From the NCBI GenBank assembly GCA_963924565.1, contig OZ004612.1, positions 28,582,001 to 28,646,000 on the forward strand: 64,000 nucleotides of DNA, written 5' to 3'. The position numbers and the translations under genes are program-made. Below, piece after piece: positions 3,801 through 36,800 of the stretch (positions within the stretch are counted from its first letter, which is position 1; each line of letters opens with the position of its first letter). The DNA comes from Ascidiella aspersa. Its lineage: Eukaryota. The notes below the pieces were generated by a model. The model had not been told where the DNA came from and ran no database searches. It saw nothing but the letters and a program-made list of their open reading frames with translations.

Positions 3801-6800
3801 TATTCCAACATTTTTTACTGAACCCTTTCTACCAAAAAAAGTATCCCAATTAACGTCTACATTACTGATCGCATCGGACAGGCCTCGAAGATAGCTATGT
3901 CGAAGTGGATGAACTGTGGCGAATTAAACTGGATGAGCTTCAGCGTTTACTGGCAGACCGTGAGTTGTTTCATGCCGATGTAGATCACTGCTTACGTTGG
4001 CTGAAGGAGGCTGATATCGTGACCTTCCCAGAGGTCAACCTCGCCGCATCGCTGCCTGACCTTGAAACTCACCTTGGCCGATACGAGGTCGGTGAATGTA
4101 AAAAGTTTGCATGTCGTTGTTTGATCCGTTTTACATCGAAATTTACGATATTTCTATCGTCATAAATTGCTTCGTTTTTTTGTGAAAGGTTTTCATAACT
4201 TTACGTGGATATAAACATATAACCTTGGGCTATACCGAATCAGTACAAAGTGTGACAGTTTGTGCCATTTGTTTTTACGGATTTTACAGAATGACTTGGT
4301 TTTGTGTTAAAATATATTGCCCAGTTTATTGTGATGTCTATCATATCTTAAACTAAAATAAAGAATTCGGAAAATTGCTACGAATCCATACATCCTTTAA
4401 AATTAACAAAATATGTTCTTTTTTCTGTAAATTCAATAAATTTTTCTAGCACAGCTGGTTGCAATTTACCAAGAAATATAATATAATTAAAGCACAGCAC
4501 ATATGAGACCAAATTCTACCTTCTCTCACCTTAAGAAAAGTCGAGTGCTACATTAGAGGAGCACAAATGTCATCGCTCTTTATAAGGTAGTACACGATAT
4601 ATTGCTTTTCAGGCGATATTAAGCGAGTCCGTGAAATATCGCGACCTCGTATGTAAAGTTTGCGAGAAAGCGCAGGAAATTCTGCCGCAACTTTCCGACG
4701 TCGACCAGAGTCTGCTCACCGATAAAATGAAGAACATAAAGGATCAGTTCGAGCAGTAAGTCAAACTCAACTTAGAAAAACCCTGGATATGTTGTGATTT
4801 CATTCCAAATTCTAAACCTAAGTTGCATAAACTTAAAAATATATATAATTTGTTAAAGTCAATTCTGCCAAGTAACTGAACACCCTCATACAATCCTAGG
4901 ACGTTACCGATTTTCTGTTTACTACAACATTAATTGATACCCCATTTCTTAAGCGGGACTTTACATTTAAAATGTATAAGACTATTCAAAATTTACATTT
5001 CTTAAAATTATCATCGGTTTTTTTGGCAATAGTTTTCGTAAATTTCCCTACTAGATCAAGTAACTAAATTGGCAATGCTTGCATGAAATACTATTATTTA
5101 AGTTATTTGTGTAACGTCCTTAATAGCCTTATTTCGTGTAGCCAGTGGTTTAATTGCACTTAAAGTGACTTTTAACAAAATGAAATGCTGCTTTCCATGT
5201 TTGACAAAACCAACTAAAAATGCTGCTTTTCCATGATCAAATTATTTTGGTTTTTCTGTTTCGCTTCTGAATATATTGCTCACATAGGGATAATTTGTGG
5301 TTCAATAAACCAAATAATGAAGGCACAATGGCAAAAATAGTCCAACATAAAATGCAACGTATATAAACTGTTGCTTCCAAGCATGGTAATATAAATCAAA
5401 AACAGCTCTTCTGGTAATTTTAATTTTTTACCAACGTTTCGGCAACCTATGCAAGTCGCCTTCGTCAGGGTGAATAACACCAAACGCTCGTACAATAAAT
5501 AGAAAACACACAAAGGAAAAAAGCAGAAATCGGTGTCATTCACCCTGACGAAGGCTACTTGCATAGGTTGCCGAAACGTTGGTTAAGAATAGCAATTACC
5601 AGAGGAGCTGTTTGGATTTAAATAAAATTCAACGTGTTACATTTTTCAACCAAAATACCACTGTCTCCTACGTTCAACAATTTTTGCTTCTAGCATTAAG
5701 TAATGACTTGCAATTGCCTTTTAGTGTTTGCAAGTTCGCCGAGGACAAGTCTGATCAGATGCGAGAGATGATGTCATCGCGGAGGGAGTATATCCACTCG
5801 TTGGAACAGCTCGAGGATTACTTGGGTGTTGGTCAAACTATGCTCAGGGAACTAGATGATATGAGCACTGGACATACCGCTGGTCAAGCAAGGACATTAC
5901 TGCTCAAAGCTGAGGTAATGGTTCTGGATGTTTTTACGAATTTATCTCTTATGATAAATTCAAAGTTTGGCGATAAACAAATGCCAGCATATTTGTTACG
6001 TAATATTCGAACGTTACTACACATATAATATTCACTTGATAATCGGTTTTAAATTAAGTCTGTTACAATTTAATATATATTTTGAAAGTTGACAGCATGG
6101 CAGTTACATAATCTTCGCATGCAACTACAAATATGATATCAAATGTTTGGTATCTGCCTGAGCTAAAATTTATTTTTTACTTCAGTCCAGTACACTATAA
6201 TAAACATTTTTATCAACAAAAAAGCTAATGTAAGAAGTTACTTTGATTAAGCTTTAACGGATTTATTTATACCGTGTCAAAACCAAAATAACCCGAAACA
6301 TACAAATATTAAAAAAATATTGTTTACCTATAGATTAACAACGTATTAACTTCAAAGTTTCGTACGTTCTTTATTTATATGCAAACATAAGCCAAACTCT
6401 CTCAATGTCCGAAGCGCGAACAAAGTCGCCAAACATATTAAATATAAAGCCACTTGTTTACGATAAAAAACTGAAGGTTAATTATTTTATCCAACGTTTA
6501 ACACTTATTTTCGTTCGCAGAAAATCCAGCATTCGATCTCGGATCGCAGACCTAGTCTTGAGAAGATTGAAAAGATGAGAGATTGCCTCAGGGGATCCGG
6601 GCAACCATGGCAACCAGAGGAACTCCTTAAAGGTGGGACGTTATATTATGGTCGTTATGATAAATAAACTATCGTCAGCAGAAAATATGCGTAATTTAAG
6701 AATAATTGCCAGTGTTACAGAAATATTTTTCAGACGTAACAGAACCATTGGTGAATACTATAAAAAAAAATTTCGCTAAACAAAAAATATTGTATTGGTC

Positions 6801-9800: not shown

Positions 9801-12800
9801 CTTATATATATTGGGGTTGTTCGAAAAGCACTTTTTTGTCAAATTTTAGCGGGAACCCCCCTAGAGTTTATTCGTCTAAAACACAACAAGCCCCACCAGG
9901 TTGCATCGAAAATCCCCACAAACCAATTCTGAGCACGTTTGGTTCAGTTTAACTGTGCTACGTCAATTTTTAGTTTGATACGTGATACGTTGACAAAGTG
10001 TAAGGACATTTCCAATAAAATACGATTAGTAGGTTTATCAAATAACATGTCTGTTTTTCAATACACCAATTTACAATATGTTGAAATATGTTATATAAAT
10101 CCAAAAAAGCTAAACGAATCCCAAATCCTCTTTAGGTCGTATCGCAGCAACATTTTTTATGTTTTACTAAATTGTCTCGTAACTGTATGAAAACTCTTTA
10201 AAAAATCGCAAACAGCAACGTATCGTTAACTCACAAACCCCCCTGTGAACGTCAAGAGCGTTTGTTGGAGGCGCTACAATTGAACATAGAACCAGTTTCT
10301 AGCCTTCCATATCCACTTACAACATCCTACTCTTATGTACGCCTGTTTTCGCCCTGTTGCCTCCTATTGTGACTTAACAAGCACGCCATTGTTGCGCAGG
10401 AGCGTTTGTTGGAGGCGCTCGAGTCCCGTCAGCGTTACGCGGATTGCATGAGTCGAGTAACGAGTAAGCTGGGTAGTGCGAGTGCAGAGTTGCAACTACT
10501 TGAAGCCGACAGCAACCCTGAGCACGCGAGAGATCTACTTGAGCAACATCAGGTATGCACTATAAAGATATTTGTTTTATTAAATGGGATCTAGTTGTTG
10601 GTGTTGGTTTGGGTATAATTTACCCTGCTTTTCGTTATTAAAATACTAAACTGAGTAATTGATAATAAATTGCAAAGCCAAAAAAGTCGAGTTGATCGAC
10701 ATCATCTTGATTAAGTCGTTTCGATACAACTTGTATCATCTTCAGTTAATGTGGCACATTAACCTTTTTGGCTTAGCAAAATATTATCAACTACATTGCA
10801 GATCCGTGCATAGTACCTAATTAATTGATATTATATTGATTTTTGTTAGTAACAATTTTTTTTATAGTAATTTTGTTGTTACAATTTTAGGCCATTGGTT
10901 TTATCAAAAAATAATTTAAAAAGTTTGTATTTTTTAGAAAATTTGTAAGATGAAAGTAATTATTTTTTTCATCCATTTGTTTTGCAATCTTGTTTAACAG
11001 ATAATCCACTTTGTAAAAATGAATATGGGTATAATTTACCAAGTTGCTTAAAAAATTGTGAATAAAAACCACAACTACTTAATTTGGGTGCCGAAATAGT
11101 TTTTTAATTTGAAACCAATTGCTTTTAAAAGATTTAAAACAGTTAGATTTTCTATTTTGAATTATTTTTATTAATTCACAATTTTGTAGCTGCAATTCCA
11201 TTTTAATTTGTGCACATAATTGTAATTTATCATGCCACCGATTCAGGCCGACTACATGATCCACCAATATGAGGTAACTCAGCATGCATACATCGGTGTA
11301 TGTTAGTCCTATAGTATTCCGTTGCATGCTTTGAAAATAGCTTAGTTGTTAGAATGTAAGGTCATCATATCTAATGTAAACTATTACTTGTCGTCTATCG
11401 CAACCTTTCCTAAAATTACTATAAACAGATGTCATTAAAATGTATCAGTTTAGAAATAATGTTAAATCCAGTTTTCTGGTGCAATTAGTTTCACAAAGTT
11501 GCCCAAAAAGAAATTGGAAAACTCAATATTTTACTATTATATCGCTACAGAGTATTGCGTCATGAAACGTCAATCATTAGGTGGTAGTTTGAGTGTATGT
11601 ATTTTGACTTTATTCCTTTAAAGGTTTAGCGTTTTCAGAATAATGTCGTAATGCCGCGTAAGTTGCATGAACCCTATCTTTTACATTACTTTCTCAGTTT
11701 AGCATCACAGTTTGCTTCCTTTTTCTGAATATTATTTTACCATCTGACTTATATTTTGAGCATGATCGTTGGTTGTACGGTGCATGCGCAACTTTATGTT
11801 TGTGAATTTGAGTTCGCCTAACCGTCCGTTGAAACTGGACAGGTAAATTTGCAATAATTGGGGTAATGAAACTGTATGTTATAAAATGAAGAATACCAAA
11901 GAAACTTATCACAAAAATCTCAATACTTATATTCTAAGCTTCATTTTTTATTTCATATTTATATTTTATAATGCATTGTTACACTGATTTCACCAATTTG
12001 AATCAACTTCAGCTGGAATCAACTTGTACCAAGTTAAACCAGTTGAAATAAATTTATACCAGTTTAAGTCATTTTGATTTGATTTATTCCAAATTTGAAC
12101 CAATTTGTACCAATTATTGAAATCGGTTAAACGAAATTATATAACCTAAAAATACAATGTCGGAATCTACTTATAACAATTTGAACTAGTTTGATTAAAT
12201 TTATATCAGTTTAAATTATTTGTAATAAGACTTTTCGGTTTAAACCAATATAAGCCAATCTAAACCAACCTGTACCAATTTTAGTAGATGTCAACCAGTT
12301 TTAACCAACTTTACCAATTTAAATCAGTTTAATCGATACGATAACCAATGTAAAGCAATTTAATCGACACGACAAACGACAACTTTCCAGGCGCTTTTTA
12401 CGACCGAGGGAGAAATCCTTCATTACGTCGATGAACTTGAGGAGGTTGCGAATGACCTTGACAGCATGTCGGGAACAATTGGACTCACTAAGACGGCACG
12501 TGACACACTCTCTACCGCCGTTGGCGGCGTGAGGGAGCGTGCCGAGAATCTGCTAGATGCCGCTAAAGAGATACACAACAGTTTGCAGGTTGGTTGCCAG
12601 TGATCGAAATATTAGCAAATTTCTCAAAACAATTATAGGAAACCACTACGCACATTTTAAAATTAAAATATAAAATAATTTGTTCTCTTAACTGGGGTAA
12701 AATTTCTTTCAACACTAGTATAGCTGAGATTAAAGTTTTAGTTTTTAAAATGTAGGCTTTAATCGAATATTTAAAAACAGTTTGTGCCTTAAATTTAACA

Positions 12801-18800: not shown

Positions 18801-21800
18801 TGCACTGCACCTGTATCCCTGTTCTATTTACAAAAATATTTTGCATTTCATTTTCTTAGCAACTTTCCGATCGCCTGGACCGTTGTCACGTGCGCCTGGT
18901 TAGTCTCGACGCAGTCGCACAGGAGATCGCAGAGCAGACGTCGCACGAGGGCAGCAAAGCGTCGTTAAATGCAGCGGTCAGCGCCGTCAATGACCATTAC
19001 GTAAGGGTACAGGGGATGATGGACGCAAAGATACACCAAGCCAATCAGGTAAAAGAGGCTATATTTTAGGTTAGTTTTTACATTAGTTTATTTCATTATT
19101 CGGTCGTGTATGCGTTAAAATAGGAACTTGTTTACAATTTTTCAGCATAAATTGAAAAATTAGTTCAGAGTTACCTCCGCGGTCCTCAGAAAACTGCTTC
19201 ACAGACCCCTAGGCTTGTATTTTTGATTTTACTATCGGACAATATGCACAATAAATTCTTTGTTTAGTTTCTATTTTATGGAGGCAGATTCCTGGTAAAA
19301 AAGGAAACATATTAATTTTCATTTATCTATTTTTTTTAATTCCTACCTAGGAAAAAGATTTTGGTATTCCCAGTTGCTTAAAGTTGAAAACAAACCTCAG
19401 GTTATGAAAGAGTGCGTTAAAACAATAAATCAAGAGCGCGAAAGTTGCAATTTTAAATTTTGACATTAGTTATAATTCAATCTCCAGGCTTCGGTATACT
19501 TGGACGAACTGGATGAGATGGGCGAGTTCCTGGATGAGTGGAAGGGCAAGGCGGTGTCGCAGATTGCTGGTCCACTCACTGTCTCCGATGCTAGGGATGC
19601 AAGAAAGCAAATGCGAGAACATAAGGTAAACATTGGAACATAACGGTTGTAGCAAGACCTAATAAGAATATCAAAGCCCATTTTGAGTCGAAATGTTCAA
19701 AATGCTACCTACTTCTGTATGGACTTTAATATTTTTATAAGGTAAAAGGTAAACGTATCAACTGAAAATCACTTTAAGGGATATTATTATTTTCAAACAT
19801 TCTCTCTTAAATCCAGATGCTTCGCTTATATGTTGTTGCATAACATTCTTGTTTCTTTTTGTTAATTCTGTTCCAATATTTTAACTTGTTGCCTAAAAAT
19901 GCTTTATTAGACTTTTTTGCAAACGAACTATAATCTTCAATTAATAAAACTAATAAAATTATAAAACATTTAAAAAACAACATTAAAAGGTATGAAATAA
20001 TTGAAAAAAGGTATAAAATAATTTTTGTTGAATTAAAAAAGGAAAATTAAAAAAATATATGAATTAAAAAAAAGGTAATTTTTTGAAAAAAAAATAAACA
20101 TCATTTAAAAAAAAGTAAATTCTTGAAAAGAACAAATATGAATTTTTAAAAAATATTATTTTTTAAAAAACTAACTTCTTCTTCCTCGTGCAGAATCTCC
20201 GTGATCAGCTCCGGAGGTTGGGAAGCGAATTGGAGCGGAAGAGAGATCGTCTTCCTGCATCACTTCCCTCCACATCAGCTGCGCTCTTCAACCGCAAAAT
20301 CGACCGGATGTTGGAGGAGTGCGCAGGAGTTGAGAGTCAGATCCGCAGGAGAGAAGACGAATTAGGGGAGGCGGTTGCCATGGCAACCGATATGGAGGAG
20401 GAGGTGCAGAAGATCATGGAAGGTTGGCTTGTTTTACTGACTGTTTTTCTCTATTAAATTAGGCAAATTAAATACGAACCAGTCGAAACAAAATGAAAAT
20501 TAAATCTAAAATTAAATCTAAAATTAAATCTAAAATTAAATCTAAAATTAAATATAAAATTAAATATAAACTTAAATATAAAATTCAATAAAGATTAAAT
20601 TTAGAATTAAATAAAAAATTTAATATAAAAATGAATACAAAAATAAATACTAAAATAAATATAGAAAAAAAAATAAATAAAATAAACTAGGCTAGGCCAA
20701 AAATTGAGATGAGTTATGCATTTTATTGGTATTGCGCTACTACCTGTATATATACTTAAGTTTTCCTGGGTGATATCCCCACCGTGTGAACTATCCAGTC
20801 AAAAAAATTAACAGTCAACATTTTTTTGTTGTCACCCTTGATCTTTGACTTAGGATCTCATGTGTCTGTTGTGTCGTTTATTTGCTACAAACCTACATTA
20901 AATTTTCTAAAACACGATTCAAATATTTCTACGTAAAGAATCTAAGCATTATGCTAACTTCATAACTTTTTTTTATATCGTTTAGTTTTAAATCTTTCTA
21001 TATTTGTCCCAGGCGTAGAAAAACTCCGTGAGAAGTCAGACGCCGAAAGCCCAGAGCGAACCATTCTCCAACAAATCGAAGCCAAGAAGCAGCTCCTTAA
21101 CAGACTGGATCAGTGGAAGCGCAAACTGGATGAGGTGAAGGAAAACCACCCCTACCAGCTCTCCCCCTGTCCGTCTCCACGAAAGAGGGGAGACCAGGAA
21201 CCCCAGGGGGTCCCAAAATTACCCCTACACACCCTCAGGGAACCCATAGAGGCCGTGAGGTTGGCCAATGATGCAGAACAAGCGATCGACGAAGTGGAAC
21301 TGGCCGTCATGGCTGACTTGCTCCAGCTGGAAGCAGTCGCGCGTGACAATGACGTGTACGAGGATGAGATCCAGAGATTGCTGACTGATCTTGAAGATGC
21401 TAAGAAGAGATTGGACGATTTCCCAACCCCAAGAAAAGGTATTTTACTTTTTATAGCGGTTAATACGTAAAGTGCTGTAATAATGCAGCCGATCACTATC
21501 CAAATGACATAATCCAACGAAGCATCCGAAAAAATAATCGACAAAAATTCCGTCTTGTATGTTTTCACCTTTTTTAGTGAAGTGCTGAGGCCGATTAATA
21601 ACATAATCGTCATTATGTTCAAAAATAAAAAAATTAATAAACGCACAAATTTGCGAAATAGTTCGATTACTTTATTTGCAAGAGTAAGTTTAAAATTATA
21701 TCCATTCGTGCAGAAAACGCAAGGGACACTAATGAATCAATTCCCTCTTTACCCTTTTTTAGTATGCATCAAATCTTTTCACTGTTTAAGTAGGTTTATT

Positions 21801-24800
21801 AGGGTGTCAGAAATGCACCAATATATACAAGGTTACAACCAGATTTATAAGCCTACTTTAACGTAACTCTACTTTTTTGTGTGCCGCATTACATTGACTG
21901 GTATTTACTATTATCTTCACACTTTAATATAGTCTCTTCATTAAAATCTTCTTTTTCTTCCAGGTTCCTCCCGTGTGTCCACTCCCCGCGACGTACGCGA
22001 AGAGTTGGAGGAATATCGGATGTTGACTCAGGAGGTGGAAAATTATCAGAGGCAGATCCGGGAGCTGAGGGATCAAGCTGACAGGATGAAGGGCAAGGGT
22101 GAGTCGAGCACTTGGTCGGAAGATCTTGGGTCATTTTACTTGGTCAGAAGATCTTGTGACATTTCACTTGGTCAGATGTACATATATTTTTTCACTTGGT
22201 CATTATGAACAAGTGCCATTCTCTATTTTTACATATCCGTGTTAAATGAATTTAAATTCACTTATCTGAACGATAGAAACTTATTTTTTTAATTTTTAAG
22301 CAGGTATTTTTTATTTTTTTATAAAATTAATTTACGTTTACGCTAAACTGATGAGACACAATACCAGTTAAAAATATTTTTGCTTATTAAATTGCCTGAA
22401 ACACGTTTAAAGTCATAGAAAATGGTTACGTTTCCTATGACAACTTAAATAAAGTGGCTATGATTTTAACCAAATAAATATAAAATACGCCAAAAACAAA
22501 TTTTGGTACGTTTTGATTTACAGACAATTCGACCATTTTACCTGACAATTTGGACTCCCCTCCATACGACTCCAACGACCAGGATAAGTTCGACTACACT
22601 GTCACGGATTACAGCAAGGCTTCGCCACACTGGAGTCCTCGTACTTCAACTCGGCAACAACGTGATTCGCCAATCGGCACACCACGTGATCAACTCACCG
22701 ACCAATCAATATCGCCGGTTTCCGAGCCGAAGCCGACCCCGACTTTTGACGACATGCTGCTTGCTACAACCAAGAGAGTGCCAATATCACCCATTGTGAA
22801 CAAGTCAAAGTAAGTATTAGGCTATAACACACTGCTTAAATTAAATTTAGAAGCAATTTTAAGTACAACTTGTTTTGAACAATTTTTTTAACATAAAAAA
22901 ATGGGAAAGATGCGAAAACAATGTTGGTGGTACTAGAAGTAACCAAAATGTTTGTAAATCCGATATTCATATCAAATTTTAATGTATCTTAGCATGAAAA
23001 TTTCTTCAAATAATATGCGTTTACTGGCCTTAAGCAACTTTAAATGTCAAAGTACAGGATAAAAGGACAACGTTTTGATTATGTTCAATCGTTTGTGTTT
23101 AAGATCGCCATCAGTGAAACGTCGTCTCACTGACCTGCTCAGTCAGCAGTTGGGGGATGAACCGGATGGGGGATCACCGGATTCGAAAATGTTCGACGCA
23201 ATGTCTGGTGAGATAAAAACGTTTGTCCTTTCGCTTTATAACATTTTGTAGTGTCGTTACTCGTCTTTAAATCACCTACAATTAATCAATCATTAAATAT
23301 ACAACACTAGAATAGAAATATAATTCGAATGTAAATAAAAATCCAACAAACTGAAAGGCGAGATTTTGTTTTTTGATTTTATGTGGTCAAATATAACACC
23401 ATTTATATCATTGGCTAAATTTTCTCCTCAAAATCTCCAAACTATCTCTTTGATGCTAATTACGCACATGTTTAGAACCGATTCCCGTGTGTGTTGAGAA
23501 CCACTTAAGTGCAACTATTTAAAATACGAATTTTGCTCAACCTACTAAAATAAGGTGTTGAGTTGAGATTCAAACTCGTACCCCTGGAACTTTGCAAGTC
23601 CAAGAGAGTTATAAAAAAGCATTATAGCTAATAATTTTTTTTCGAACTTTCAGCACATGTGTCTATTTTTTATATGAATTTCCAGACGTGTCCACGTGCA
23701 GCACCGGCTCCTTATTGTCCCCGCGACACGCGATGCCAATTGTCTCGACGTCACCCGACTCTGCTATTGCGCAATCGACCGACATGGACCGCTACGATCA
23801 GATTGATGGTGAGGTTTCAGTTTAAAGTAACACCCGGCAAATTTGTAAGAAAAGAGTATGAGAAATTAATTTATAATTTAGTAGAAAATGGAGTGAGTAA
23901 AGTAAATGAGATTAACTCGTTTTTCAACTTCCATTTGTTAATTACCTTTTTCTGTTTTTGACTCTATTTTTCGTGCAACATTAAAAAAAGCATTTTAATG
24001 GAACTACCAAGATTCAAATATGATTTTGAAAGAATGACAAAAACGGTTATGGTGAACACATATTAGGGACAGTCGTTAACAGTTAACATTAGGTGTACCA
24101 TTGGCTTTAACCTAGTTTTGTATCAAAATATAATGTTTTTAAGGTTATTCCATTTTTAACACCCTTGCCCATAGTTTGTTATCCAACGACTGCTTTGGCT
24201 ATTGAGCCATGAACTTACGCGTAGCAATGGGTAATCAATACGTCACTGTTTGTAGATGACGTCACTCCCCGTCCGATACGCACGAGCAGTCCCTTTATGG
24301 TCACCAGAGGGCGCGACAGTTCGTTCCTGGACTCCCCTGACCACAAGCTTCAAGTTGTAGACCGATCCCTGTCGAAACTAAAGGAGCAGGTCGGTTTGGA
24401 AGAACTTGTTTAATCAAGATGAATCTAAGATAGCAACAAAAAGGAGTATTGCAAATTGTTCTTAAACATAAAAAAATATATTACAAAATAATGAGATGAG
24501 CTAAATAAAAATGTTGACTTTTTTAGGTTGGGATTTTTTGGCCAGGAAATTTATAAACTGTATTTAAAATGTTTTAATTTTTTGATTGTTTTTGCGAAAA
24601 TTGGTCAAAACATACAAATATAGCGTTACAATAGTAAATACCAAAAAATGAACAAAAGCTATCAATAGAAGGTGAAAATGTGTTATAGTAAAAACTGGTT
24701 TCACATGAGGTTTTTGGTGCCGTAATGTGCAGTTCTACAAAAATTAGCCAATGTATCTATTGCAGATAAAAATAAATTAATATTTTTTCAAATTGTTTTC

Positions 24801-27800
24801 GAGAAAACTTTCACAGAGTTTAATCGTCTTTATAAATCATTATCTTAATTATTTGCAGGAATAATACATTTTAATTAATAGAGCTTATAGCATAAATGAT
24901 GGCAGACAACATCTTACAATATTGTTCTATCTTAAATTTTTTTTTTTCTTTTTTGCTTTAGTTGGGTGAAAAGGCTGATTCTCTCCTCAGCGCCCTCCAC
25001 CGGCAAGACGACCTCCAACACGATATTCAGGAAGTGACGTCAAAATTGGACGAGTTCCAGGAACGGTTGGACTCATCCGATAAACAGGTTGACCTTCAGA
25101 AGACCTTGACGGACACGCAGGTTTTTACCTAGCACATTTTGTTTTGAGTTTCTAGAAAATATATTTCAACAATTGAGGGACAGAACTTCGTTTTCCTAGA
25201 CAAAAAAAAAAGTACAATAACATGAATAAATAAAAAAGACAGGGATTTAATTTATAAAAATAGTGTCATTGTTATCAAACTTATTTTTACAAATGTGCCC
25301 CAACATTTGCAATTTTCTCTAATTATCTTGACTTTAGGAGTAATATTCAACTAATAAAATTGTTTCAAAAACATAAAATATTATAATTATGTTTAACTAA
25401 AACTGAAGGCTTAAGAAATTTATGCTTTACGATCGATGGGACATCAAATGTCTTAGGCCTGAAAAAAACGAAAAATAAGTTATTTGACCAGCACTTGTCG
25501 ACAGGAACTACTAGAGGAGTATAAATTGTTTCATTAGTATAAAGCATATTTTTATTATATATTATGATTAAGTTAAATTAGCAGAAATCTGTAATAATGG
25601 ATAATTGCGTATATTACTATACAAATTAATTGAAAGGTATTTCTGTCTGTAAACTTACACAAACAGTGTGGTAAGTATGTACTGTCATTAACTCCAGCAA
25701 AATACTATCTTAAGCCACAAAAAGTTTCAAAACAGGAGAAAAGTAGGTTATTTGACCAGCACTTTGTCCCCAGGAACTGCTGGACGACATCAATCGCCTG
25801 ATCCCAAAGCTTGAGTCGGTTGATCGTAAGGTGAGATTCCTGGATCCAACTCACAGTGGGAAAGACGCTTTTAAGGCCACAGTGTCGGTGCTCTACGATC
25901 GATGGGACACGATCAGGATGCAGGCAACTTCAAAGCAGAATACTGTAGAGGTAATATGGAAGCGTGGTATTATTTAACATTTAAGTCAGGGTAGGTTTTA
26001 CGTTTAACGTGTGACCAAAAAAATATGTTTTATAAATTTAAAATGTCTTTGTTACATCTGACGATTTTCTCTTTTCGTTAGACCAGCGAATGTTTTTTCA
26101 CCTATCCATAAACAAACTGCTTGAACTAGATTAATTTATTTGTCCCTCTTATTTATTTTTATCTGTTTTAATCTCTACAATAAATAAGTTCGTTGTACAG
26201 CAAAAATTGTAAAACCAAAACTGGAAAAAATTTGCAACTAAAATGTAATATCAACCTAATAAAGCTAAACAAAAATCCAATTAAAAAAAATATAATCCAA
26301 TTAAAAAAAAAAAAATATTAAAAAAAATAAAAGAAAAAAAGCTTGTTTTAGATACATTATCAAGACAAATGACTGATATTTTTTTCAAACAGTCTTTTCC
26401 TAATTCTTAACAACAATTCCCTTTTTCAGATCAAAGTGACGATCTTTGAAATAATTTAAACCTAAAATTTGAATTTGAACTACAAACTGTCAATACGGTT
26501 TCTTACAAACAAATTCTTCACAAAAATGTTATTTTTCAGATTAAAATTCTTGAGGACGAGCAATACCGCCGCATGGTTGAGGCTTACAAGGCCGAACTAC
26601 AGCAAGTCGCTGATTGGATGCAAGAAGCAAAACAAAGCAGCGTTTCTCCTCCTCCTATTCAATCCCTACCTCCTGCTCCTCCTGGGAGCTCCTCCGGAGG
26701 ATCAACATCCGGAGGCAGCAACATGACTTCAGTCCACAAACAGCTGGATCAGTGCAGGAACACTGTGCTTGATATTGAGAGGAAACTAATACTGCTTTCT
26801 GAGCTCAGTGGTGAGTTGTTGTTGTTTGAAAAATAGTCTTTTTTCTTTGTTTGGCAGTGTTGTAATGTCCACTTATGTCTTTTGACCAAAGTGACTTGAC
26901 TTAAGTATTATGACCAAAATGACTTGACTTGACTTGACTTGACTTATGGCTTTCCGACAATTAACTTGACTTAAACTTACGTCATTGTGTCAAATAATTT
27001 GGGTTTAAATAAAATGAGCACTGTGCTTGATATTGAGAGGAAGCTAATCTTGCTTTCAGAGCTCAGTGGTGAGTTGTTGTTGTTGTTTGAAAAATATAAT
27101 TTAAATTAAGGCGGAAAATGTTTTAGAAAGCAATTTTTACTTACAAGTATTGCGCCGACTATTAGTATCATCCAACAAACGGATGAGGGTTGACTTTAAT
27201 TGACAAATTAAATAAATATGCTGCTTCTACCAGGCTTAGTATACTAAAGATATGGTATTAAGCGATTCGTTCGAGTTTAGAAGATACCGTTTTGACGAAA
27301 CACATTTCTCTAAAAAAACACACATTTTTCTCTATTTTAACATCTAATAAAATAGTTGACGTTAAACCGTTTTAGGAAAAAAAATTTCTTGTATAATGCC
27401 GAATCTCAGTATCATGGCTTTAAATAAATGAGGGTTGAGTTGGTATTTTATTAATTGATTTTTTTGGGTCATAAAGAAATGACTTGGTAAATAATTTTGA
27501 GATAAATTTTCCATTTTGTATTAACGCAAGTATAAGTGCAAGATAAACTGAAAATACAATCGTTAACAATAATAATTAAGTGTGTATAATAAAACAAAAA
27601 TTTTGCGGAAAATAAAAAAGGTACAACTTATTACATGTTATATTAAACCCATGTAATGGTTTAGAAAAATATGTGGTTTTGTTTTGTTAATATCTGTCTG
27701 TGGTACCAATTAATTATTGTGTATGTCAAAACTGTGAATTGTCAAAATTGTATTTTTTTGCCTAATTTCGTTGTAGAGGTAGCGTTTTAGGACTCTTTCA

Positions 27801-30800
27801 ATCACTACGATTAATTAATCAACCAATTTGTTCAACCTTTCAACCATGTATAATTAAAATAACTTTCGTAGAACTTGATTTAACATGTTAGATCATATCG
27901 ATTTATTATTTTAGGGCATAATTGCCACATATTGTCAATATTTTTGCAGAACGTTTTGACACATTTTGGAGAAGCAATCCCGTCTATGAGGTACTCGGTA
28001 CGTCACCTCATTTGCATAACAAGCTTGCATTACCTATGACGTAATCGTGACGCAACAATCCTAAATTGCCTGACGTCACATAACGCTTTCAGATTGCAAA
28101 TTTAAAGCATTGCGGTGCCATTGGTATCGGGGAAATCATTGCGTTATCAAAATTAAGTGTGACGTCACACTTTTACTGTTTTGCGTCATCAAGTTAATTG
28201 TGACGTCACATTTTTACTGTTATGCGTCATGAAATTAAGTGTGACGTCACGTTTTACTGCTATGCGTCATCAAATTAAGTGTGACGTCACATTTTTACTG
28301 TTATGCATCATCAAATTAAGTGTGACGTCACATTTTTACTGTTATGCATTATCAAGTTAAGTGTGACGTCACGTTTTACTGTTATGCGTCATTAAATTAA
28401 TTGTGACGTCACATTTTACTGCTAAGCGTCATTATATTAGCTATGACGTCATATTTTACTCTCATTACGTCATCCCATTAACTAAAACTAACAGGAACGC
28501 CATATCGCGAAACGCGTGACGTCACTCTGACGCCACAATCGTTCCGATCTCGCACGTCATCGACGTCATCAAACGCGGGCAGTGTGATGTCATCAGCGAT
28601 CCCTGCCACGTTCCGTTCCATGGGCTTGACGTCATCAAGGACACGTCATAGTTCCGGTCTGCCGAGTGTGAAGCGGTTGTTTGGTGCTGGTGTGTGAAAC
28701 ATAACAGTGATAGTTTGTTCTAACTGGCTTTAAACTGTTTGTTCTCTTAATCACCACTTTATTCATGCTAAAATTTTTTAACATTGAAATGATTTTCCAA
28801 AAAATTGTAAAAAAGAGTAGTGGACCAAACAATGAACACTTGGCTTTACACTAGCAGAGTCCTTTTCTCGATATTAAGTAAAGTTAGTTTGTTGTACAAG
28901 GTCTCATTTTAAGCCAGAGTAAAACAAACTTTTTGAATTTACCAATAGTTTTCTGTCACTTTTAAACTTCCAATCAACACTGAATAAAAATCTATTTTAG
29001 AAATATCTTGTCACCAAAGTTAATTAAATGCATCCACGCTTTTCGCACCCTGCTTTTCGCACGCTTCTTACACCCCTGTCAACGTGGGCAACTTGATTTA
29101 TTTATATTTTCAAAGTGGAAATTAAGTTCAAAGGATTACTGGAAACTTAAATTCGCACTACCAAACTACAAATTATTTTTCCACTTGCTTGCGCACACGA
29201 AAATTTTTCTGTTTTTATTTGTTACACGATAAATTAATTGTACTTATGCTTTTAGCAAAGCGCCTACACTCATTTGATCATACGTATGAACAAAATCACT
29301 TGATTTATCATTATTCATTACAGTGTGTGTGTGTGTTATATTTTATCTGCACGTGTGTCTTAACAAACTAACACCTTCTGTTTTTCCTGTTTGATTGCGT
29401 TTTCTTGTTAACTGGTAAATGCTGCTAACTATATTCATTTAAACGTTAGCTAAATATTGCATGTTGTAAAAGTTGTCAAAAAGTGTCAACTTCTGCAACA
29501 AACAGTGTATTTTTCATTAGTAACCTTGATTTAACTAATCTTTGGTTTTGACAACTGCTAAATTTGTTGTGCATGAGTTTTGTTTTATTTATTTTATTAT
29601 ATTGGCGATTATTTAGTATTGTCTAACGGACGCGATATGTGTTGTTTGTAAGAGTTTAATGAAACCGTCATTAAAAAATAATCACCAAGTAATTGCATGT
29701 ACAGTAAATAAATTGCACGCCATTTACGTTTAAGTTGCATGTTACATTGTATAATAATAATTACACACCAAGTAATCACTTTAAATGTGTCAAAAACTGT
29801 ATATCTTGTGCCTACAGCTGCTATCATTGTTTTTCTTTTTATCCTGAGCTTCACAATACCGTGCCTTTTTTCCGCAGACAAGTCGTCGGTTCTCTCGCAA
29901 GCCGAGGAGCAGCGGGACGCCCTCTTGCGGGAGCTCGAGTCTGTGAAAGGTGACCTTGAGAACTTGCAGCGGGAAACGCAGGACAGGGAAAGGTCACTGC
30001 AGGTAACAATTATGAAATTGTGTTGCATTTCCATTATTAAAGAAGCAAATTAAAAGTTTTATTAGACAAACATACAAGATTACTGCAGGTGAAATTCATA
30101 AAATTCGGTTACTTTCATTGTTAACTTAATTTTAACACATGAAAAACCCACTGCAGGTGAAAATATTACTCTGTAGGTGAAAATATTACATTTCTATGTT
30201 TCAACTTTTAATAATTTAAAAAAGTTACTGCAGATAAAAATAATAAAATTCGGATACATTTTTGTCGTCAATAAAGCAAATTCAATGTTATTAGACAAAC
30301 ATACATAGAAATATTTATTAAAAAAGACTTATTTTTTCCCTATTAATCAACAGCGTACAAAATAAAAGAAAGGTTCAAAAAAATTTTTTGGTGTAACGCG
30401 AGAACTTTTATTGCTTAAATAAGTTGTTTAAAAAAGATTAAAAATTAATTTTTGTTTTGTGATATTTTTATTGTTGAAATATGTCATTACAAGCTCATGT
30501 TATTTTCCCAAATCGATTTTTTTTTACTTAAACAATCCTTCTTGTAATGTTTCGGCTTTGGATGTTTTTTAGAATGAACTGAACACAAAACTGGACGAAT
30601 CGTTGTTAGAACAAGAATCACGAGCTCAAAAAATGAAAGATTGGCTTGAATCTTTAGAGGTATGTCAAAAAAAGGCGATATTTGTTTTAAACCTTTCAAA
30701 ATAACTAATTCCTTTTATCTATGTTTATACACGTTTCTCCTAAAGAGCATAACTGATTAATTTTAAAACAGAACTTAAAAACCGTTTATTTTACTAACTT

Positions 30801-33800
30801 TTGAAACTCCTTATTTTATTTATCTTTAAATAAATCCACTCCCCATTGTTTCGTTACAGACCGATGTGCCCGACCCGGAAGTACTCACTCCCACGACTCT
30901 GCAGCGCCAACTATCGGAGGATTTGCGTGGCCACCAGGACGACCTGGAATCGGTTGCTAGGAAAGGAAGGAGCAGATCAGCTTCGAAAGAATCATCTAGT
31001 GAGTAAATCTTCCAGTTAGAAAAAAACTGATAACTTTTGTTTTAAATAGCATACTACTAATTATATAAAATTTAGACCGACAATTTAGACCGAAAAACAC
31101 TTATGCATTGTTTTAACGGCACCTGGTTGAAAACCACTGTTTTATAATACAAAAGTGGTTCCCTAAATAATACTTTACAAGAAGCAAAAGCACCTGCTGT
31201 GGTAATAACACTTACTTCAGTAAACCAATAGTGATTGTAACCATTGTAATACTAATCAAATTTTAATACAATTGGTTAGAAATGTGAAAAGCTTGGCAAA
31301 TTTTATATGATTAATCTGATTTTACCAAAATTAGTAAGTCGCGTAAGTTTTTAGCCAGACAAAAAGCGGTCACGACCACAAAAAAGGCCGGGACCACTGT
31401 GACAGAGCATTCAGTTTAATCACGAAATTTGTTTTAAATTGCAGTGCTTTCACCGCGACCTGTCGCAGACGAGCCAAGTTCTTGGGAGAAACTTCGCGCA
31501 GATGTTGAAACAAAATCCGCAGCCACCGACCAACTGACTAGCAAGGAGATGACAAGTGGAACCCACCTCACACTAGCACAAGCTGTGGACTGCGGGGAGA
31601 GGGTAAACCCCGCTAAATTGAAGGTACGGAACGTTTTAAGCACTAATAGGGAAATCAGGTTAACAAAATCGAAGCGAGCAACATACGTAAAAGAGACGCT
31701 GAAAGAATATTGAATTCGCCAAAGCGGCATCATCAGTTTCTTTGAAATGAAATTCAAGGAAGGCTATTAACAATAAAAATAACATATCAATTTTGAAAAT
31801 GAAAGCAATGTAGGTTTTGGAATCCTAGGAAGATACATCTATTAAAACTCGAAAACGTCTAAGTTTAGCTCTTTAGTAAGCGATATGCTTCATGCACTTT
31901 GTTTAGCATCTATAAACAGTATTACAAATATTACAAGATATCGTTAAAATGTAAATATTCTGCACAAATTTTTATATTATATATTTGTATCACAACAAAG
32001 TTGATATTTTTTTTTCTTGTTAGGACACACTTGACGAGATGAACAACAACTGGAGAAACTTAAACCACTCAACGCAAAACGCTTCACAGATCGACGAAAG
32101 ATCACAGGATTCTCTCAAGGTAACTCCCTGGGTTGGAAATTTTACCGGACGAGTATGACGCAATTAATCAGTTACCAATTATGACGTCATTTGTGCCAAC
32201 TTAATCCACTAAAAAGATTTGGTTCTTGTCTGATAAAAAAGTATCGATGTAACATACTTTATTAAACAAAGTGTAAATGTCACATAAGCTACCAAAATAA
32301 CCATTTTTCCATCTTTTTGCTATATATATACTTTAGGGTGGAATTTTATTTTCTTCTAAAGATATTTAATTTCGACCAAGTATACTTTGAATGAAAACTC
32401 TTTTAACACTACATATTATGTGCCTGTGCCTGATACATCAGGTGGGACTTTGTTGCAATTTAACAACTTGACGTAAATTTGTTGATGTACTTGCTTGCAA
32501 TCCAACAGAGTTTGACAACGTTACTTGATCAAGTCGAGTTCGATCTGATCTTGAGCGATTGGACGAAGGAGAGCGATCCTGGAATTCAGAGGGAATGTAA
32601 AGCTCTGCAGGAAAGCTTGAGCGATCTACAGACAACTTGCAAACAGGTGAAAACACAAATATATAAACATTACTGGCATATTCTTTTATACAAGATGTTT
32701 ACGTTATTGGCCTTCGTAGGCGATCTCCAGACAACTTGTAAACAGGTGATAATAAATAGTACTATATAAGTTTTATTATATACAGCTACCCGGTTATTAT
32801 TATGAGTATGCTGTAATCGTTGGTCAGTACCACTTTAGCACGGCTGATCACATGATATACCCATGTGAATTCCATGATTTATCGGGCATCAGTTGTTATT
32901 TAGTTTTTGTTATATATTAGGGAGCTAAATCGCCGTATATACCCATGTATACTCCATGGCTCAGTTTTAGGTTTGATTTTGGCAGAATTCTTTATTAAAT
33001 GACAACTGTAATTGAAACTAGCTTTGTTTGAGAAGTTTGAGATGACGATTTGATATCTTTAGGTATAGTTAATCGGTCTGAGTGTAATTATAAGAAATAT
33101 AGGTTACTGGGAGTCTAACTACAAGATATCGCTTCACTGCCATTTAAAAAAGTACCATTTCCTCTTGAAAATAAAATCTATCTATTGGAAATGGCCGAAA
33201 CGTGCTAATTATCATTTTCCTTACATTTGCGAATTACCAAGAGCCCTAAACAAAATTTTAAACCGGTTTCACGGAAAATTCGCTGTGTTTTCCCTAAGGT
33301 GAACATATCAGTTTGGCTATCTGCGTGCTATCTAGGATCATAGTAGTGCATTGTAAACTCACATTCAAGTAAAACCTTCCAATTAACTATGAAGAGAAAA
33401 AAATATCTTTCTTTTAAGCTGTTACACTTTTTTTATTTCGATCTTCCCAGTTTTCGCCCGAGAACCCACTGATCCGTAACCAATGCGACATCCAATCAAC
33501 GCTGCGTTGCCTTGACAACCGAATGCGCGCGGTGCTCGAACAACAGCGCAATTGGGAGACCAGGTCACGTGACAAAATGAACCAATGGCGAAACGTACAG
33601 GTTTGGAAATACCTTATCATCCAATACATTCAATTCTCCTGTCTTTTAAACTTTCAACCATATTTCATATAGCTTACAATCGATTCTTCTTTTTTTTGAA
33701 TGGCGTAACCTTAATGCATGCATATAATCAGTCAATGCTCGAAATTAAATAAAAAGTTATTATTCTAGCAGAAGACCTAGCAGGTGTACAAAATATTGTA

Positions 33801-36800
33801 GCTGAAAAATGCTGCAATTTAACAAAAGTTTTATTGCTTAATTTGAGGATAATGCAGCAATACACTGCATATGCAAGGTGGACGTGTATTTTTTCTGATT
33901 TACATTTATATATCGTACAAAAATTTAAATCTCTATAATACAAGTGATTTGGTATTGCATTTTTAGGTAACATATGCAATTTTCTTAGTGGATTATATAT
34001 ACATTTCTTAGCAGACAATTTTTTGAATTCTTCGACATTAATATTTTTTTCGGTTCCAGGTTGACCTCAAGATGTCGCTGTCGCAGCTCGGCCAGATCCG
34101 GAAGCAGCTCAAACACGTCACATCCGGTAGAGACGTGGTAGAAGCGGCTGACCTTAAGCTTCGATGCGACAAGATCAAGGCCCTCCAGCAAGAGGTCACG
34201 ACCTTGAAGGAACAGTTCAAAGTTCACCTCCTAACCGCCGAAAAAGTGATTTTTTGCCTCCTTATGAAAATTTTAGTAAAACTGAAATCTCTAGTAAACG
34301 TAAATTTCCGTAAAACAAAGCTCGGTGCACTAATGAAAACCGTGTATTTCGCGGATTTTAGCTGAAAAAAGTGGATCTGCTCAAGCCTAAATATTTATTT
34401 CTGGCCGAACTTTGTTGTCCGCGTGTTTAGAGATTCTTGTTGTACAAGTTAATGTTAATCGACTTGAATTTTTTATAACAACATTTTGGTGCAACACTAA
34501 AAACCGTTACAAGGCAAATATTTATCCAAGTCCAGAAATAGTTCATAATAAATTAGGATGGAAATCTGCCATAGTTTGATCGCTGCTAAGAATATTTTAT
34601 TTCAATCAAATTGACTTCTTAAAGTCTAAATATTACGTTTTTTTATGTAAACGTTGTTTTTGGCCTATAAAAGCAGTGGTTCGTAACTTGTGAATGATTA
34701 TTCCCGAAGGGAGTACTTGTTAATTTGTGGCGCAAGTTTTTAGAATAATATTAAATTCCATCTTCCTTTTACGCTTTTCTTTTCACGCTGAAAAGCAAAA
34801 AGTAGTATTCAGTCTTTCAATGGTTTAAATTTTGTATTTGTATTTGTATTCAAATTATACGATATAATTTTAATATATTAAATATGGTAAAAAAACATCT
34901 AATTCGTTTAAAAAAGTTAACAACCACTCCTTTAAGATTTAATGTACAAATTAGGTCTTGTTTCTTTCATGTTGGTCTGTTTAATCTAAACTTTGTGTGT
35001 TTTGATTAGTTTGCAGTTGGCGCCTACCCGTGCCACACGGCCGACTCGCATCTTTTGAAAAGCATGATCTGTGACGTCACAAAGGAATTGCAAGCCTCAC
35101 TGACCGAGCTGAGGTTGAGGATTAACGAAGAACAAAACTTTCAACAGGTTTATGCAAAAGAAAAATAGCTTAAAACGGTCTTTTGGGCCATATTTGCATA
35201 GACTAAAACGAAAGGATATTTAATCAAATAAATTGTGATATCGAAATAATTAAACTGGAATTAAAAACAGTCATTCTGTTTAAATAATGTTTTAGTTTTA
35301 ACTTTTCCATCTTTTTACCAAGACCAATTTTGAGCTAAAGTTAAACTGTGAAGAAAGTTTAAATGTAAACAATTGATTGTTACCTCACAGATGTTGACCG
35401 ACTACAAAGCTTTGCTTGAGGCAGGAAACGATAAAGTGTCGCGAAGCAAAACAGATGTTTTAAGCCTGAACGACTTTAAGCAGTTTATCTCATTGCTCAA
35501 GGTTCGTCGCAATTTAGTTCTCTTTCAAACGGCCTGTATTTAATTTAGTTACATGTAATGAAAAACAGTAAATCAGCCGGTCCTTTTTGGTAAGTGCTCC
35601 GCCAGGTCAAACAGAGTTGTAAAAAGCTTGTTAATTTTTACAAAATGTGTTAATAATTTGACTTGCTATCTATTTACGGTTTTTAATATGTGCCTACCAC
35701 TACCATCTAATTCTAAGATTATACACAAAGCTGTTCCGTAGTTATATTTAATTCAAATTATTAGAACATTATTGTTCTTTATTTAATAAAATAGTCATTT
35801 TGTAGTTAAAAAGGTCCCAACGGCTTGTTTTAGGAACGTATTGTATATTTGATAGTTTGAAACATAGAAAAGAATTGTCCTTGAAGAATCCGCCATAGTT
35901 TAACTTCATTTTTTTTTCTTTTAATATTACCACTTGTTTTTTAATTACACGAAAAAGATGCTGAATCAATCTGTTAGTTATCTAAAAATGCAATTTGGCA
36001 AATATTTTTTATTTTTGTGCAATTTTATGGAAATCAATTAGCACAACGACCTAATATAAAGAATCGTAGCACTGTTATAATACAAACACTAAAACAATAT
36101 GCCCAAGTCACTCTAGTAAGGAAATTTTTCACTGAGTATTTTTTTTATGTTTTTCCAGGACTTTTCTTCAGCCGTGCAAACTCACCGAGCCGTTTGCGTC
36201 GAAACTTGCGACAAAATGTTCGACGATCTACAAGCAGCGCAGCGACATCTGCTGGACGAACTTACCGACGAACACTTGACGCTGGAGGGCAGGCTTGTCG
36301 ACAAAATCGCGGATTTTGAACGCTGTGTTAAGGTCAGTATAGCAGTTATTTAAAGCACTTTGATTGTATTTTGTAAATCAAACAATTCCAAGTTTTTAAG
36401 TGTTTTCAAAATACCAAAATATCTTCTTTTATTTAGAAATTAATCATTAAATATCCCAAACTGCCCAAATTTTTCGAATAATTTGTGTCGCAATCGAGTT
36501 TTATTTAATTTTTCTTTAGAATACCTAAAAAATAATCTTCTTTAGAAATTAATAATGCAATATCCCAAACTGCTCAAATTTTGCTTTTTCTTTAATTTCC
36601 AAATGTCACTAAATATACACAATGCAGAAAGGTTCTTTTCAGTTTCTATGTTAAAAAACTAATTTAACAACTAAATGTTGTTTCAGGATTGGGAGGAATT
36701 CGAATCTGAAATCCTCCATCTGAGCGATGATCTGGAAACTGTGGAGTCTCTTCTTCCGGAGGAGAAGGGATCCTCCGACCATGAAGTGGAGGAAGTTAAA

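What the first reader, a model, noticed from the sequence alone, without database searches (positions are those of the whole stretch)
28495..28689. Candidate cassette exon adding two SxIP-type (EB-binding) motifs to the nesprin rod
Seen: a frame-preserving 65-codon segment reading TPYRETRDVTLTPQSFRSRTSSTSSNAGSVMSSAIPATFRSMGLTSSRTRHSSGLPSVKRLFGA. SAIP (28593-28604) and SGLP (28653-28664) lie in a basic, Ser-rich context without acidic residues. Skipping it leaves w33-w34 as a continuous helical repeat. Known: Sx(I/L)P in such a context is the EB1 plus-end-tracking signal used by spectraplakins and APC. Inference: a splicing switch could give this nesprin a direct microtubule plus-end link, which I do not know from vertebrate nesprin-1. 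Caveats: the acceptor is weak and the segment is rich in TGACGTCA-like motifs, so it may be repeat-derived.
Basis: partly seen in the sequence, partly recalled or inferred. Interest (0 to 1): 0.72.

Follow-up and report, generated by a model that had tools for sequence, protein, structure and literature searches.

The report
Regulated loop exon in sea-squirt nesprin
A real, spliced 162-base exon inserts a predicted floppy 54-amino-acid loop into the rod of the nuclear anchoring protein nesprin-1 of what is probably a sea squirt; it is likely switched by tissue, but the RNA seen cuts through one of the two proposed microtubule-tip motifs and the other is a poor match, so a direct microtubule-tip link is unlikely.

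Summary
The segment is a real exon of a nesprin-1 gene, but not quite the one described. RNA joins 26810 to 28495 in two runs. The only donor seen (one run) is 28656, not 28689, so the exon is 162 nt and the donor cuts SGLP inside its Gly codon. No skipped form was seen. Sequence signs still point to a regulated cassette: weak acceptor overlapping a QKI-type element, rare donor, four TGCATG (RBFOX) sites downstream (the only such cluster in 350 kb), unspliced RNA over its two flanking introns, and no such insert in fish nesprin-1. SAIP fails all three wordings of the published SxIP context rule that I read; SGLP fails the strict one and passes two looser ones. Conservation in other species and EB binding could not be tested. 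Verdict: a new member of a known kind (spliced unstructured inserts in the nesprin rod, like human exon 93), most likely a hinge or phospho-loop; an EB-binding switch stays possible at about 12%.

The parts
26540..26810 (+). upstream nesprin-1 exon (helices A and most of B of a spectrin repeat), ends in phase 1
   Evidence: X3 contig and X4 joint; aligns to fish nesprin-1
26811..28494 (+). upstream intron, 1684 nt, partly unspliced in X3 (depth 3.6-5.4 against 15.1 spliced)
28140..28457 (.). 41-bp tandem array (7.8 copies), each unit with a TGACGTCA palindrome; single locus in the genome; X2 lacks 162 nt of it
28479..28494 (+). weak acceptor: no polypyrimidine tract, overlapped by a bipartite QKI-type element (TAAC plus ACTAAC at 28487-28492)
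   Evidence: QKI motif as tabulated in PMC7404189
28495..28656 (+). the exon as spliced in RNA: 162 nt, phase 1-1, 54 codons, Ser/Thr-rich (23 of 53 whole codons), 7 R, 2 acidic
   Evidence: joints 26810>28495 and 28656>29878; chain 21013-35147 open over 1071 codons
28593..28604 (+). SAIP, SxIP core without a basic residue in its nine-residue context
28653..28664 (+). SGLP, SxLP core cut by the observed donor (the GT lies in the Gly codon)
28657..28689 (+). predicted in-frame 33-nt extension to a second donor (not seen in RNA); GC 58%
   Evidence: higher GC than all 96 intron starts; a stronger in-frame open donor within 60 nt occurs at 1 of 96 other donors
29324..29335 (+). intronic (TG)n run, CELF-type element (assignment recalled, not tested)
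29458..29741 (+). cluster of four TGCATG (RBFOX) elements at 29458, 29570, 29694, 29736 in the downstream intron
29878..30002 (+). downstream nesprin-1 exon (end of helix B, B-C turn and helix C of the same repeat)
   Evidence: X3 contig; alignment; model of the fish repeat

Best explanation
28495-28656 is a spliced, frame-preserving nesprin-1 exon that fish nesprin-1 lacks and that is likely a tissue-regulated cassette, adding a predicted disordered, basic Ser/Thr loop that likely works as a flexible, phosphorylatable hinge in the rod rather than as an EB-binding signal. Shown: inclusion, frame, position in the gene. Inferred: RBFOX bound to the downstream TGCATG cluster promotes inclusion over a weak acceptor and donor (muscle or nerve), QKI at the acceptor opposes it, and cells without the activator skip the exon. 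Predicted: the insert opens a spectrin repeat about two turns before the end of helix B, loosening the rod at that point.
For: Joints 26810>28495 (X3, X4) and 28656>29878 (X3), GT..AG; open chain of 1071 codons. Gene identity: KASH match 20 kb past the window, same strand; exons colinear with fish and hagfish nesprin-1. No insert in 4 of 4 fish proteins from 2 species. Four TGCATG against 0.21 expected, P 7e-5, reached by 0 of 151 other introns; reverse complement 0; only cluster of four within 300 nt in 350 kb; top-ranked hexamer of that intron. Downstream GCAUG usually enhances inclusion (PMC11874969); Ciona Rbfox1/2/3 and Qki are named as cardiopharyngeal genes (PMC10219245). Weak acceptor, GTCT donor used by 1 of 125 well-scoring model exons (this one). 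Intronic X3 contigs: 4 of 4 listed lie in the two flanking introns; three purely intronic bins elsewhere read 0-0.15. 0 substitutions in 162 nt against 39 in 1686 flanking intronic nt in X3, p 0.044. No secondary structure in a single-sequence model, pTM 0.19; site is 7 residues before the end of helix B in the fish model; two RxRxxS sites.
Against: No skipped transcript was seen; X3 runs as one unbranched contig through the exon, and X3 does keep two parallel contigs where variants are near equal (10.7 of 18.9 at 30608-30623), so inclusion dominates there. I first spotted TGCATG by eye, and 14 of 26 similar-length introns have some hexamer as enriched. The cluster is 800-1100 nt from the exon and an RNA bridge was not better than chance. 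The flanking introns are also the two longest of the 18 laid, and three exon-bearing bins elsewhere show excess depth of 2-5 that I attribute to overlapping contigs without proof. The RBFOX C-terminal family search in this genome found nothing, with a silent control. The hinge and phosphorylation steps are untested.
Confidence: 0.5

Rival explanations
1. A lineage-specific but constitutive exon: an enlarged B-C loop that is always included, like the other Ser/Pro-rich linker exons of this gene, with no switch.
For: Only inclusion seen, in two studies; the linker exons 22524-24389 are likewise all included in X3; the upstream exon also has a Ser/Pro/Gly-expanded loop relative to fish.
Against: Weak splice sites, TGCATG cluster, unspliced flanking introns and symmetric phase. 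Only two samples of unknown tissue, one read to 6% with about one fragment here.
Confidence: 0.25
2. An EB-binding splice switch: the downstream donor at 28689 adds SGLP-SVKR next to SAIP, giving a tandem SxIP/SxLP loop that would tether the nesprin rod to EB at microtubule plus ends; the observed donor at 28656 would be the off state.
For: The observed donor lies inside SGLP; the 33-nt extension is open, GC-rich beyond all 96 intron starts and ends at a better-scoring donor (2.1 against -0.04). SGLP passes two looser wordings of the rule (PMC9877351; PMC4834103). Two cores arise in 0.4% of shuffles. These are the only acid-free cores among 7 in an 8156-residue model. The genome has an EB gene.
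Against: 28689 donor not seen; the extension scores -0.05 per base in my coding model. Both motifs fail the strict rule and SAIP fails all three wordings. Four putative motifs failed to co-localise with EB1 in PMC3649978. Acid-free cores also occur in fish and hagfish nesprins (P0011, P0038).
Confidence: 0.12
3. The loop is a basic, acid-poor patch that binds the microtubule lattice or another acidic partner electrostatically, independent of SxIP, and is switched off by phosphorylation.
For: 7 R against 2 acidic residues, both acids in the first 8 residues; 23 Ser/Thr; RxRxxS and SxxxS runs. Phosphorylation weakens such contacts in +TIPs (PMC4834103).
Against: Net charge of only +5 over 53 residues; no direct test; no related sequence found.
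Confidence: 0.07
4. The DNA matters more than the peptide: the TGACGTCA-rich array and exon form an internal CRE-type promoter or enhancer, and the exon can also start a short KASH isoform at the in-frame ATGs (28587, 28620).
For: 7 ACGTCA/TGACGT hexamer hits in 162 nt (43 per kb against 3.4 in other exons; overlapping hits at palindromes count twice); 9 TGACGTCA in the upstream intron against 0.31 expected; vertebrate nesprin-1 uses internal starts (PMC3388047, PMC3981789).
Against: Both RNA runs join the exon to the upstream exon; X3 contig depth does not step up across it (14.6, 15.1, 17.2); the array is length-polymorphic; the window holds 34 TGACGTCA, several in other exons.
Confidence: 0.05
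5. A repeat-derived open frame that is not an exon.
For: Sits 37 nt from a TGACGTCA array and shares the motif.
Against: Spliced in RNA; single copy; similarity to the array unit not above shuffles (105 of 1000 as high).
Confidence: 0.01

Closest known systems
Human nesprin-1 (SYNE1) cassette exon 93 (PMC3388047, passages and Table 2)
   Same: Alternatively spliced, frame-preserving, Ser/Thr/Pro-rich insert of about 50 residues (47 aa) in a spectrin repeat of the central rod; function unknown, proposed by the authors as a possible localisation or binding site.
   Different: Not the same position: the fish counterpart of exon 93 aligns to the window's linker exons near 22800-23800, several exons upstream. 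Exon 93 is acidic; this insert is basic. Skipping is shown for exon 93, not here.
DV23 exon of nesprin-1/-2 (PMC3981789, passages)
   Same: Small in-frame cassette of the nesprin rod with high inclusion in heart and skeletal muscle, the pattern predicted here.
   Different: [quoted passage not shown]
SxIP +TIPs (APC, MACF/Shot, CLASP; rule of Jiang et al. 2012 as quoted in PMC3649978, PMC9877351, PMC4834103)
   Same: [ST]x[IL]P cores in a predicted disordered, Ser-rich, acid-free stretch.
   Different: No R/K in X1-X4 of either core; the better core is destroyed by the donor seen in RNA; no binding or conservation evidence.
Drosophila MSP300 with Shot and EB1 (PMC4442817, passages; review PMC10317153)
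   Same: A nesprin-1 orthologue working with EB1 around muscle nuclei.
   Different: The review lists the binding region as not determined; the primary paper has no occurrence of 'SxIP', and Shot is the EB1 partner discussed. No splice switch described in the passages read.

Membership tests
nesprin-1 (SYNE1) giant | C-terminal KASH domain | tested here: met
   PF10541 at 55.8 bits, + strand, 20 kb past the window, ending PPPT-stop
nesprin-1 (SYNE1) giant | spectrin-repeat rod colinear with vertebrate nesprin-1 | tested here: met
   window exons match fish and hagfish nesprin-1 in order
nesprin-1 (SYNE1) giant | N-terminal CH domains in the same transcript | tested here: inconclusive
   CH match 247 kb upstream on the same strand followed by rod-like exons, but separated by about 165 kb without modelled exons; continuity not shown
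cassette exon | spliced in through canonical sites, frame kept | tested here: met
cassette exon | skipped isoform exists | tested here: inconclusive
   no skip joint in X3 contigs; X4 had no reads on the downstream exon; contigs drop rare variants
RBFOX-activated exon | (U)GCAUG cluster in the downstream intron, weak splice sites | tested here: met
RBFOX-activated exon | inclusion falls on RBFOX loss or motif mutation | not testable with these tools
   needs knock-down or minigene
SxIP +TIP (SxIP-9AA) | [ST]-x-[IL]-P core | tested here: met
   SAIP in the observed form; SGLP only in the unobserved long form
SxIP +TIP (SxIP-9AA) | no D/E in X1-X6 | tested here: met
   both cores
SxIP +TIP (SxIP-9AA) | at least one R/K in X1-X4 | tested here: not met
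   neither core; under looser wordings SGLP passes and SAIP still fails
SxIP +TIP (SxIP-9AA) | lies in a disordered region | tested here: met
   no helix or strand elements, pTM 0.19, single-sequence model, so weak; composition
SxIP +TIP (SxIP-9AA) | motif conserved in related species | tested here: inconclusive
   no homologous exon retrieved; the relative's contig could be read only around an exon 24 kb upstream
SxIP +TIP (SxIP-9AA) | IP-dependent EB binding and plus-end tracking | not testable with these tools
   bench test needed
homologue of human exon 93 | same position in the rod | tested here: not met
exonised dispersed repeat | related copies elsewhere in the genome | tested here: not met
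   one match each for exon and array (that search skips very common words); no significant likeness to the array unit

The most novel reading that the evidence does not exclude
A two-step splice switch in a chordate nesprin-1: RBFOX/QKI decide whether the loop is included, and a choice between two donors 33 nt apart, the first lying inside the SGLP codons, decides whether the loop carries a tandem SxIP/SxLP module that tethers the nuclear anchor directly to EB on microtubule plus ends.
Probability: 0.12. Interest if true: 0.72.

Novelty: new member of a known kind. Interest (0 to 1): 0.34.

Why it matters
As it stands: an apparently undescribed, likely muscle- or nerve-regulated insert in an invertebrate chordate nesprin-1, of the same kind as human exon 93 and DV23, showing that splicing of unstructured loops into the nesprin rod arose at a further site. 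That is of moderate interest. If the long form exists and binds EB, it would be a defined, splice-controlled direct link between a LINC-complex nesprin and microtubule plus ends; in the papers searched nesprin-1 reaches microtubules through kinesin (LEWD), AKAP6/AKAP9/PCM1 or an unmapped MSP300-EB1 association.

Tried and rejected
Run search: no indexed RNA holder was listed; one raw RNA run was added by species label. X4 was read to 6% both times with the same subsample and says nothing on the donor or on skipping. Protein searches with the upstream exon (863 candidates, none at E 0.001) and with the exon's own frame (1 candidate, none at E 1) were blank and are weak. Metagenome scan with the upstream exon: 597 pattern matches, 0 confirmed. 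A relative's contig (85% identical at exon 3882-4087) was found but only 2.4 kb could be read and the record is not held for further search. Hagfish nesprin P0038 does not align over this repeat, so it is uninformative. ESM Atlas: best score 0.86, unnamed bacterial clusters, no lead. Pfam: 0 families for the exon. RNA bridge between the exon end and the TGCATG cluster: 2 of 40 control introns as good; 9 of 1610 control tiles as good as the best tile: rejected. QKI, MBNL and PTB motif counts in the flanking introns are not enriched. Candidate microexon 27950-27997: no joint, coding score negative. Jiang 2012, Buey 2012 and Kumar and Wittmann 2012 are not held; the rule is cited second-hand. In some searches I placed one downstream acceptor at 30574 instead of 30573; this shifted the frame only after the region of interest and was corrected.

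Full report
Observation. The peptide and both cores are at the stated places, read from 28497 after a phase-1 acceptor at 28495. The segment is single-copy in the 309-Mb genome. It follows a 41-bp tandem array of TGACGTCA units at 28140-28457, itself single-locus.

The gene. A KASH domain lies 20 kb past the window on the same strand. One window exon retrieved 13 representatives, among them amphioxus nesprin-1-like, fish nesprin-1 and a hagfish cluster with a nesprin-1-like member, and the window's modelled exons match the fish and hagfish proteins in order. CH-domain exons lie 247 kb upstream, beyond a gap of about 165 kb without modelled exons. That the animal is a sea squirt is inferred from the chordate-type protein and from earlier, unchecked notes on this genome.

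RNA. Four runs were listed. X1 and X2 cover introns evenly and show no splice joints, so I treat them as DNA. X3 is unlabelled but shows GT..AG joints at 14 of the 15 joints displayed (the other has two letters between; 3 more not shown), so I treat it as RNA. X4 is raw RNA-seq, read to 6%. The joint 26810>28495 is in X3 (depth 15.1) and X4 (2 reads, probably one fragment). The exon's 3' joint in X3 is 28656>29878, not 28689. The exon is therefore 162 nt, and the 19-exon chain 21013-35147 is open over 1071 codons. The donor GT lies in the Gly codon of SGLP, so the transcript seen keeps SAIP only. No skip joint and no joint to 27950-27997 or from 28689 was listed. Limits: X4 had no reads on the downstream exon, joints with under three reads are listed only if a contig shows them, and contigs drop minor forms. 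X3 does keep two parallel contigs where variants are near equal (10.7 of 18.9), so inclusion with the short donor dominates in that sample (inference).

Is it a cassette? Not shown, but likely (about 65%). The acceptor has a pyrimidine share of 0.47, among the seven lowest of 158, and overlaps a bipartite QKI-type element; the GTCT donor is unique among 125 well-scoring model exons. The downstream intron holds four TGCATG against 0.21 expected; 0 of 151 other introns reach four and the reverse complement is absent. It is the only cluster of four within 300 nt in 350 kb and the top hexamer of that intron, though 14 of 26 similar-length introns have some hexamer as enriched, so the weight rests on TGCATG being a known regulator motif, which I noticed by eye first. 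Downstream GCAUG usually enhances inclusion (PMC11874969, passages), distal sites can act through RNA bridges (PMC7404189, passages), and Ciona Rbfox1/2/3 and Qki are named among cardiopharyngeal genes (PMC10219245, one passage). A bridge was not supported here. In X3 the four intronic contigs listed all lie in the two flanking introns at depth 3-5, while three purely intronic bins elsewhere read 0-0.15 (47 pieces not displayed). These are also the two longest of the 18 introns laid. As an internal check, the only other intron with three TGCATG hides an in-frame 27-nt candidate microexon, the only hit with two or more GCATG downstream in a scan of the model introns from -48 to +84 kb.

28657-28689 is open in frame, has 58% GC, more than all 96 intron starts compared, and GC falls to 33% right after; its donor scores 2.1 against -0.04, and such a stronger in-frame donor occurs at 1 of 96 other exons. 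Its coding score is slightly negative. A second donor is plausible but unseen.

Protein anatomy. Four fish nesprin-1 proteins from two species run on without an insert; hagfish does not align here. In a model of the fish repeat (pLDDT 76) the site lies 7 residues before the end of helix B, just ahead of the B-C turn. The skipped form aligns with a connector five residues shorter than fish; the included form opens the repeat there (prediction). The insert has no predicted structure, 23 Ser/Thr, 7 Arg, 2 acids and two RxRxxS sites. X3 shows 0 substitutions in the exon against 39 in 1686 nt of flanking intron, p 0.044, one individual; neighbouring exons show 12 of 272 and 0 of 124.

SxIP. The rule of Jiang et al. 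as quoted in PMC3649978 (passages) needs R/K in X1-X4 and no D/E in X1-X6. Both cores meet the second part and fail the first. Two reviews word it more loosely (PMC9877351; PMC4834103; passages); SGLP passes those, SAIP does not. So the transcript seen has no passing motif, and any EB switch would be the donor choice. One core arises in 7-11% of shuffles and two in 0.4%. They are the only acid-free cores among 7 in the 8156-residue model, but acid-free cores also occur in fish and hagfish nesprins. The genome has an EB gene. Conservation could not be tested.

Repeat origin. The exon is rich in ACGTCA/TGACGT (43 per kb against 3.4 in other exons), which accounts for its Thr-Ser-Ser runs, but aligns to the array unit no better than 105 of 1000 dinucleotide shuffles. 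Birth from motif-rich intron DNA, or overlap with a CRE-type element, is possible; a dispersed-repeat origin is not supported.

Known relatives and novelty. Human exon 93 (47 aa, PMC3388047, passages and Table 2) and DV23 (PMC3981789, passages) are spliced inserts of the nesprin rod; this exon is at another position. MSP300 works with Shot and EB1, with no SxIP mentioned (PMC4442817, passages; PMC10317153, passages; PMC3432764, passages). Searches for nesprin with ascidian (13 papers, 12 listed), with SxIP (6, 5 listed) and with EB1/plus-end/KASH (27, 20 listed) showed no title or abstract start on this exon or on a nesprin SxIP; these were search listings, and subscription papers are missing. 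bioRxiv 2025.04.16.649091 uses only a nesprin tension sensor (passages); PMC12772994 (passages) was read for the TGCATG motif. No supplements were opened.

Verdict. A real exon, likely regulated, of a known kind; best read as a hinge or phospho-loop (0.5), then constitutive loop (0.25), EB switch by donor choice (0.12). Interest 0.34.

Noticed in passing
window 11247-11273 (+): Candidate 27-nt in-frame microexon (phase 0-0, 9 codons) inside intron 10553-12390, with a TGC 14 nt upstream and three GCATG within 400 nt downstream; the only such hit in a scan of the model introns from -48 to +84 kb. No reads were laid on it.
   Followed up: partly
window 27950-27997 (+): 48-nt phase 1-1 candidate exon with a good acceptor, a weak donor and an NPVY (NPxY-type) motif; no RNA joint in X3 or X4. 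Could be a tissue-specific alternative partner of the main exon.
   Followed up: partly
window 27020-27096: Partial duplicate of the end of exon 26540-26810 with its donor, about 260 nt downstream; also present in X2 and X3. A decoy donor in the intron upstream of the regulated exon.
   Followed up: partly
G000:C6 about 28.37-28.53 Mb: About 165 kb without modelled nesprin exons between the CH-bearing exons and the rod exons; earlier notes place a CUB-receptor gene array there, which would be nested in a giant nesprin intron.
   Followed up: no
window 21013-24389: Several exons encode Ser/Pro-rich linkers much longer than the fish counterpart around the exon-93-like stretch; all are included in X3.
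   Followed up: partly
window 26871-26945: (TGACT)n-containing dispersed repeat with very high depth in DNA runs and loose ends in all four runs.
   Followed up: no
window 28140-28457: The TGACGTCA array is length-polymorphic: X2 lacks 162 nt, about four units.
   Followed up: no
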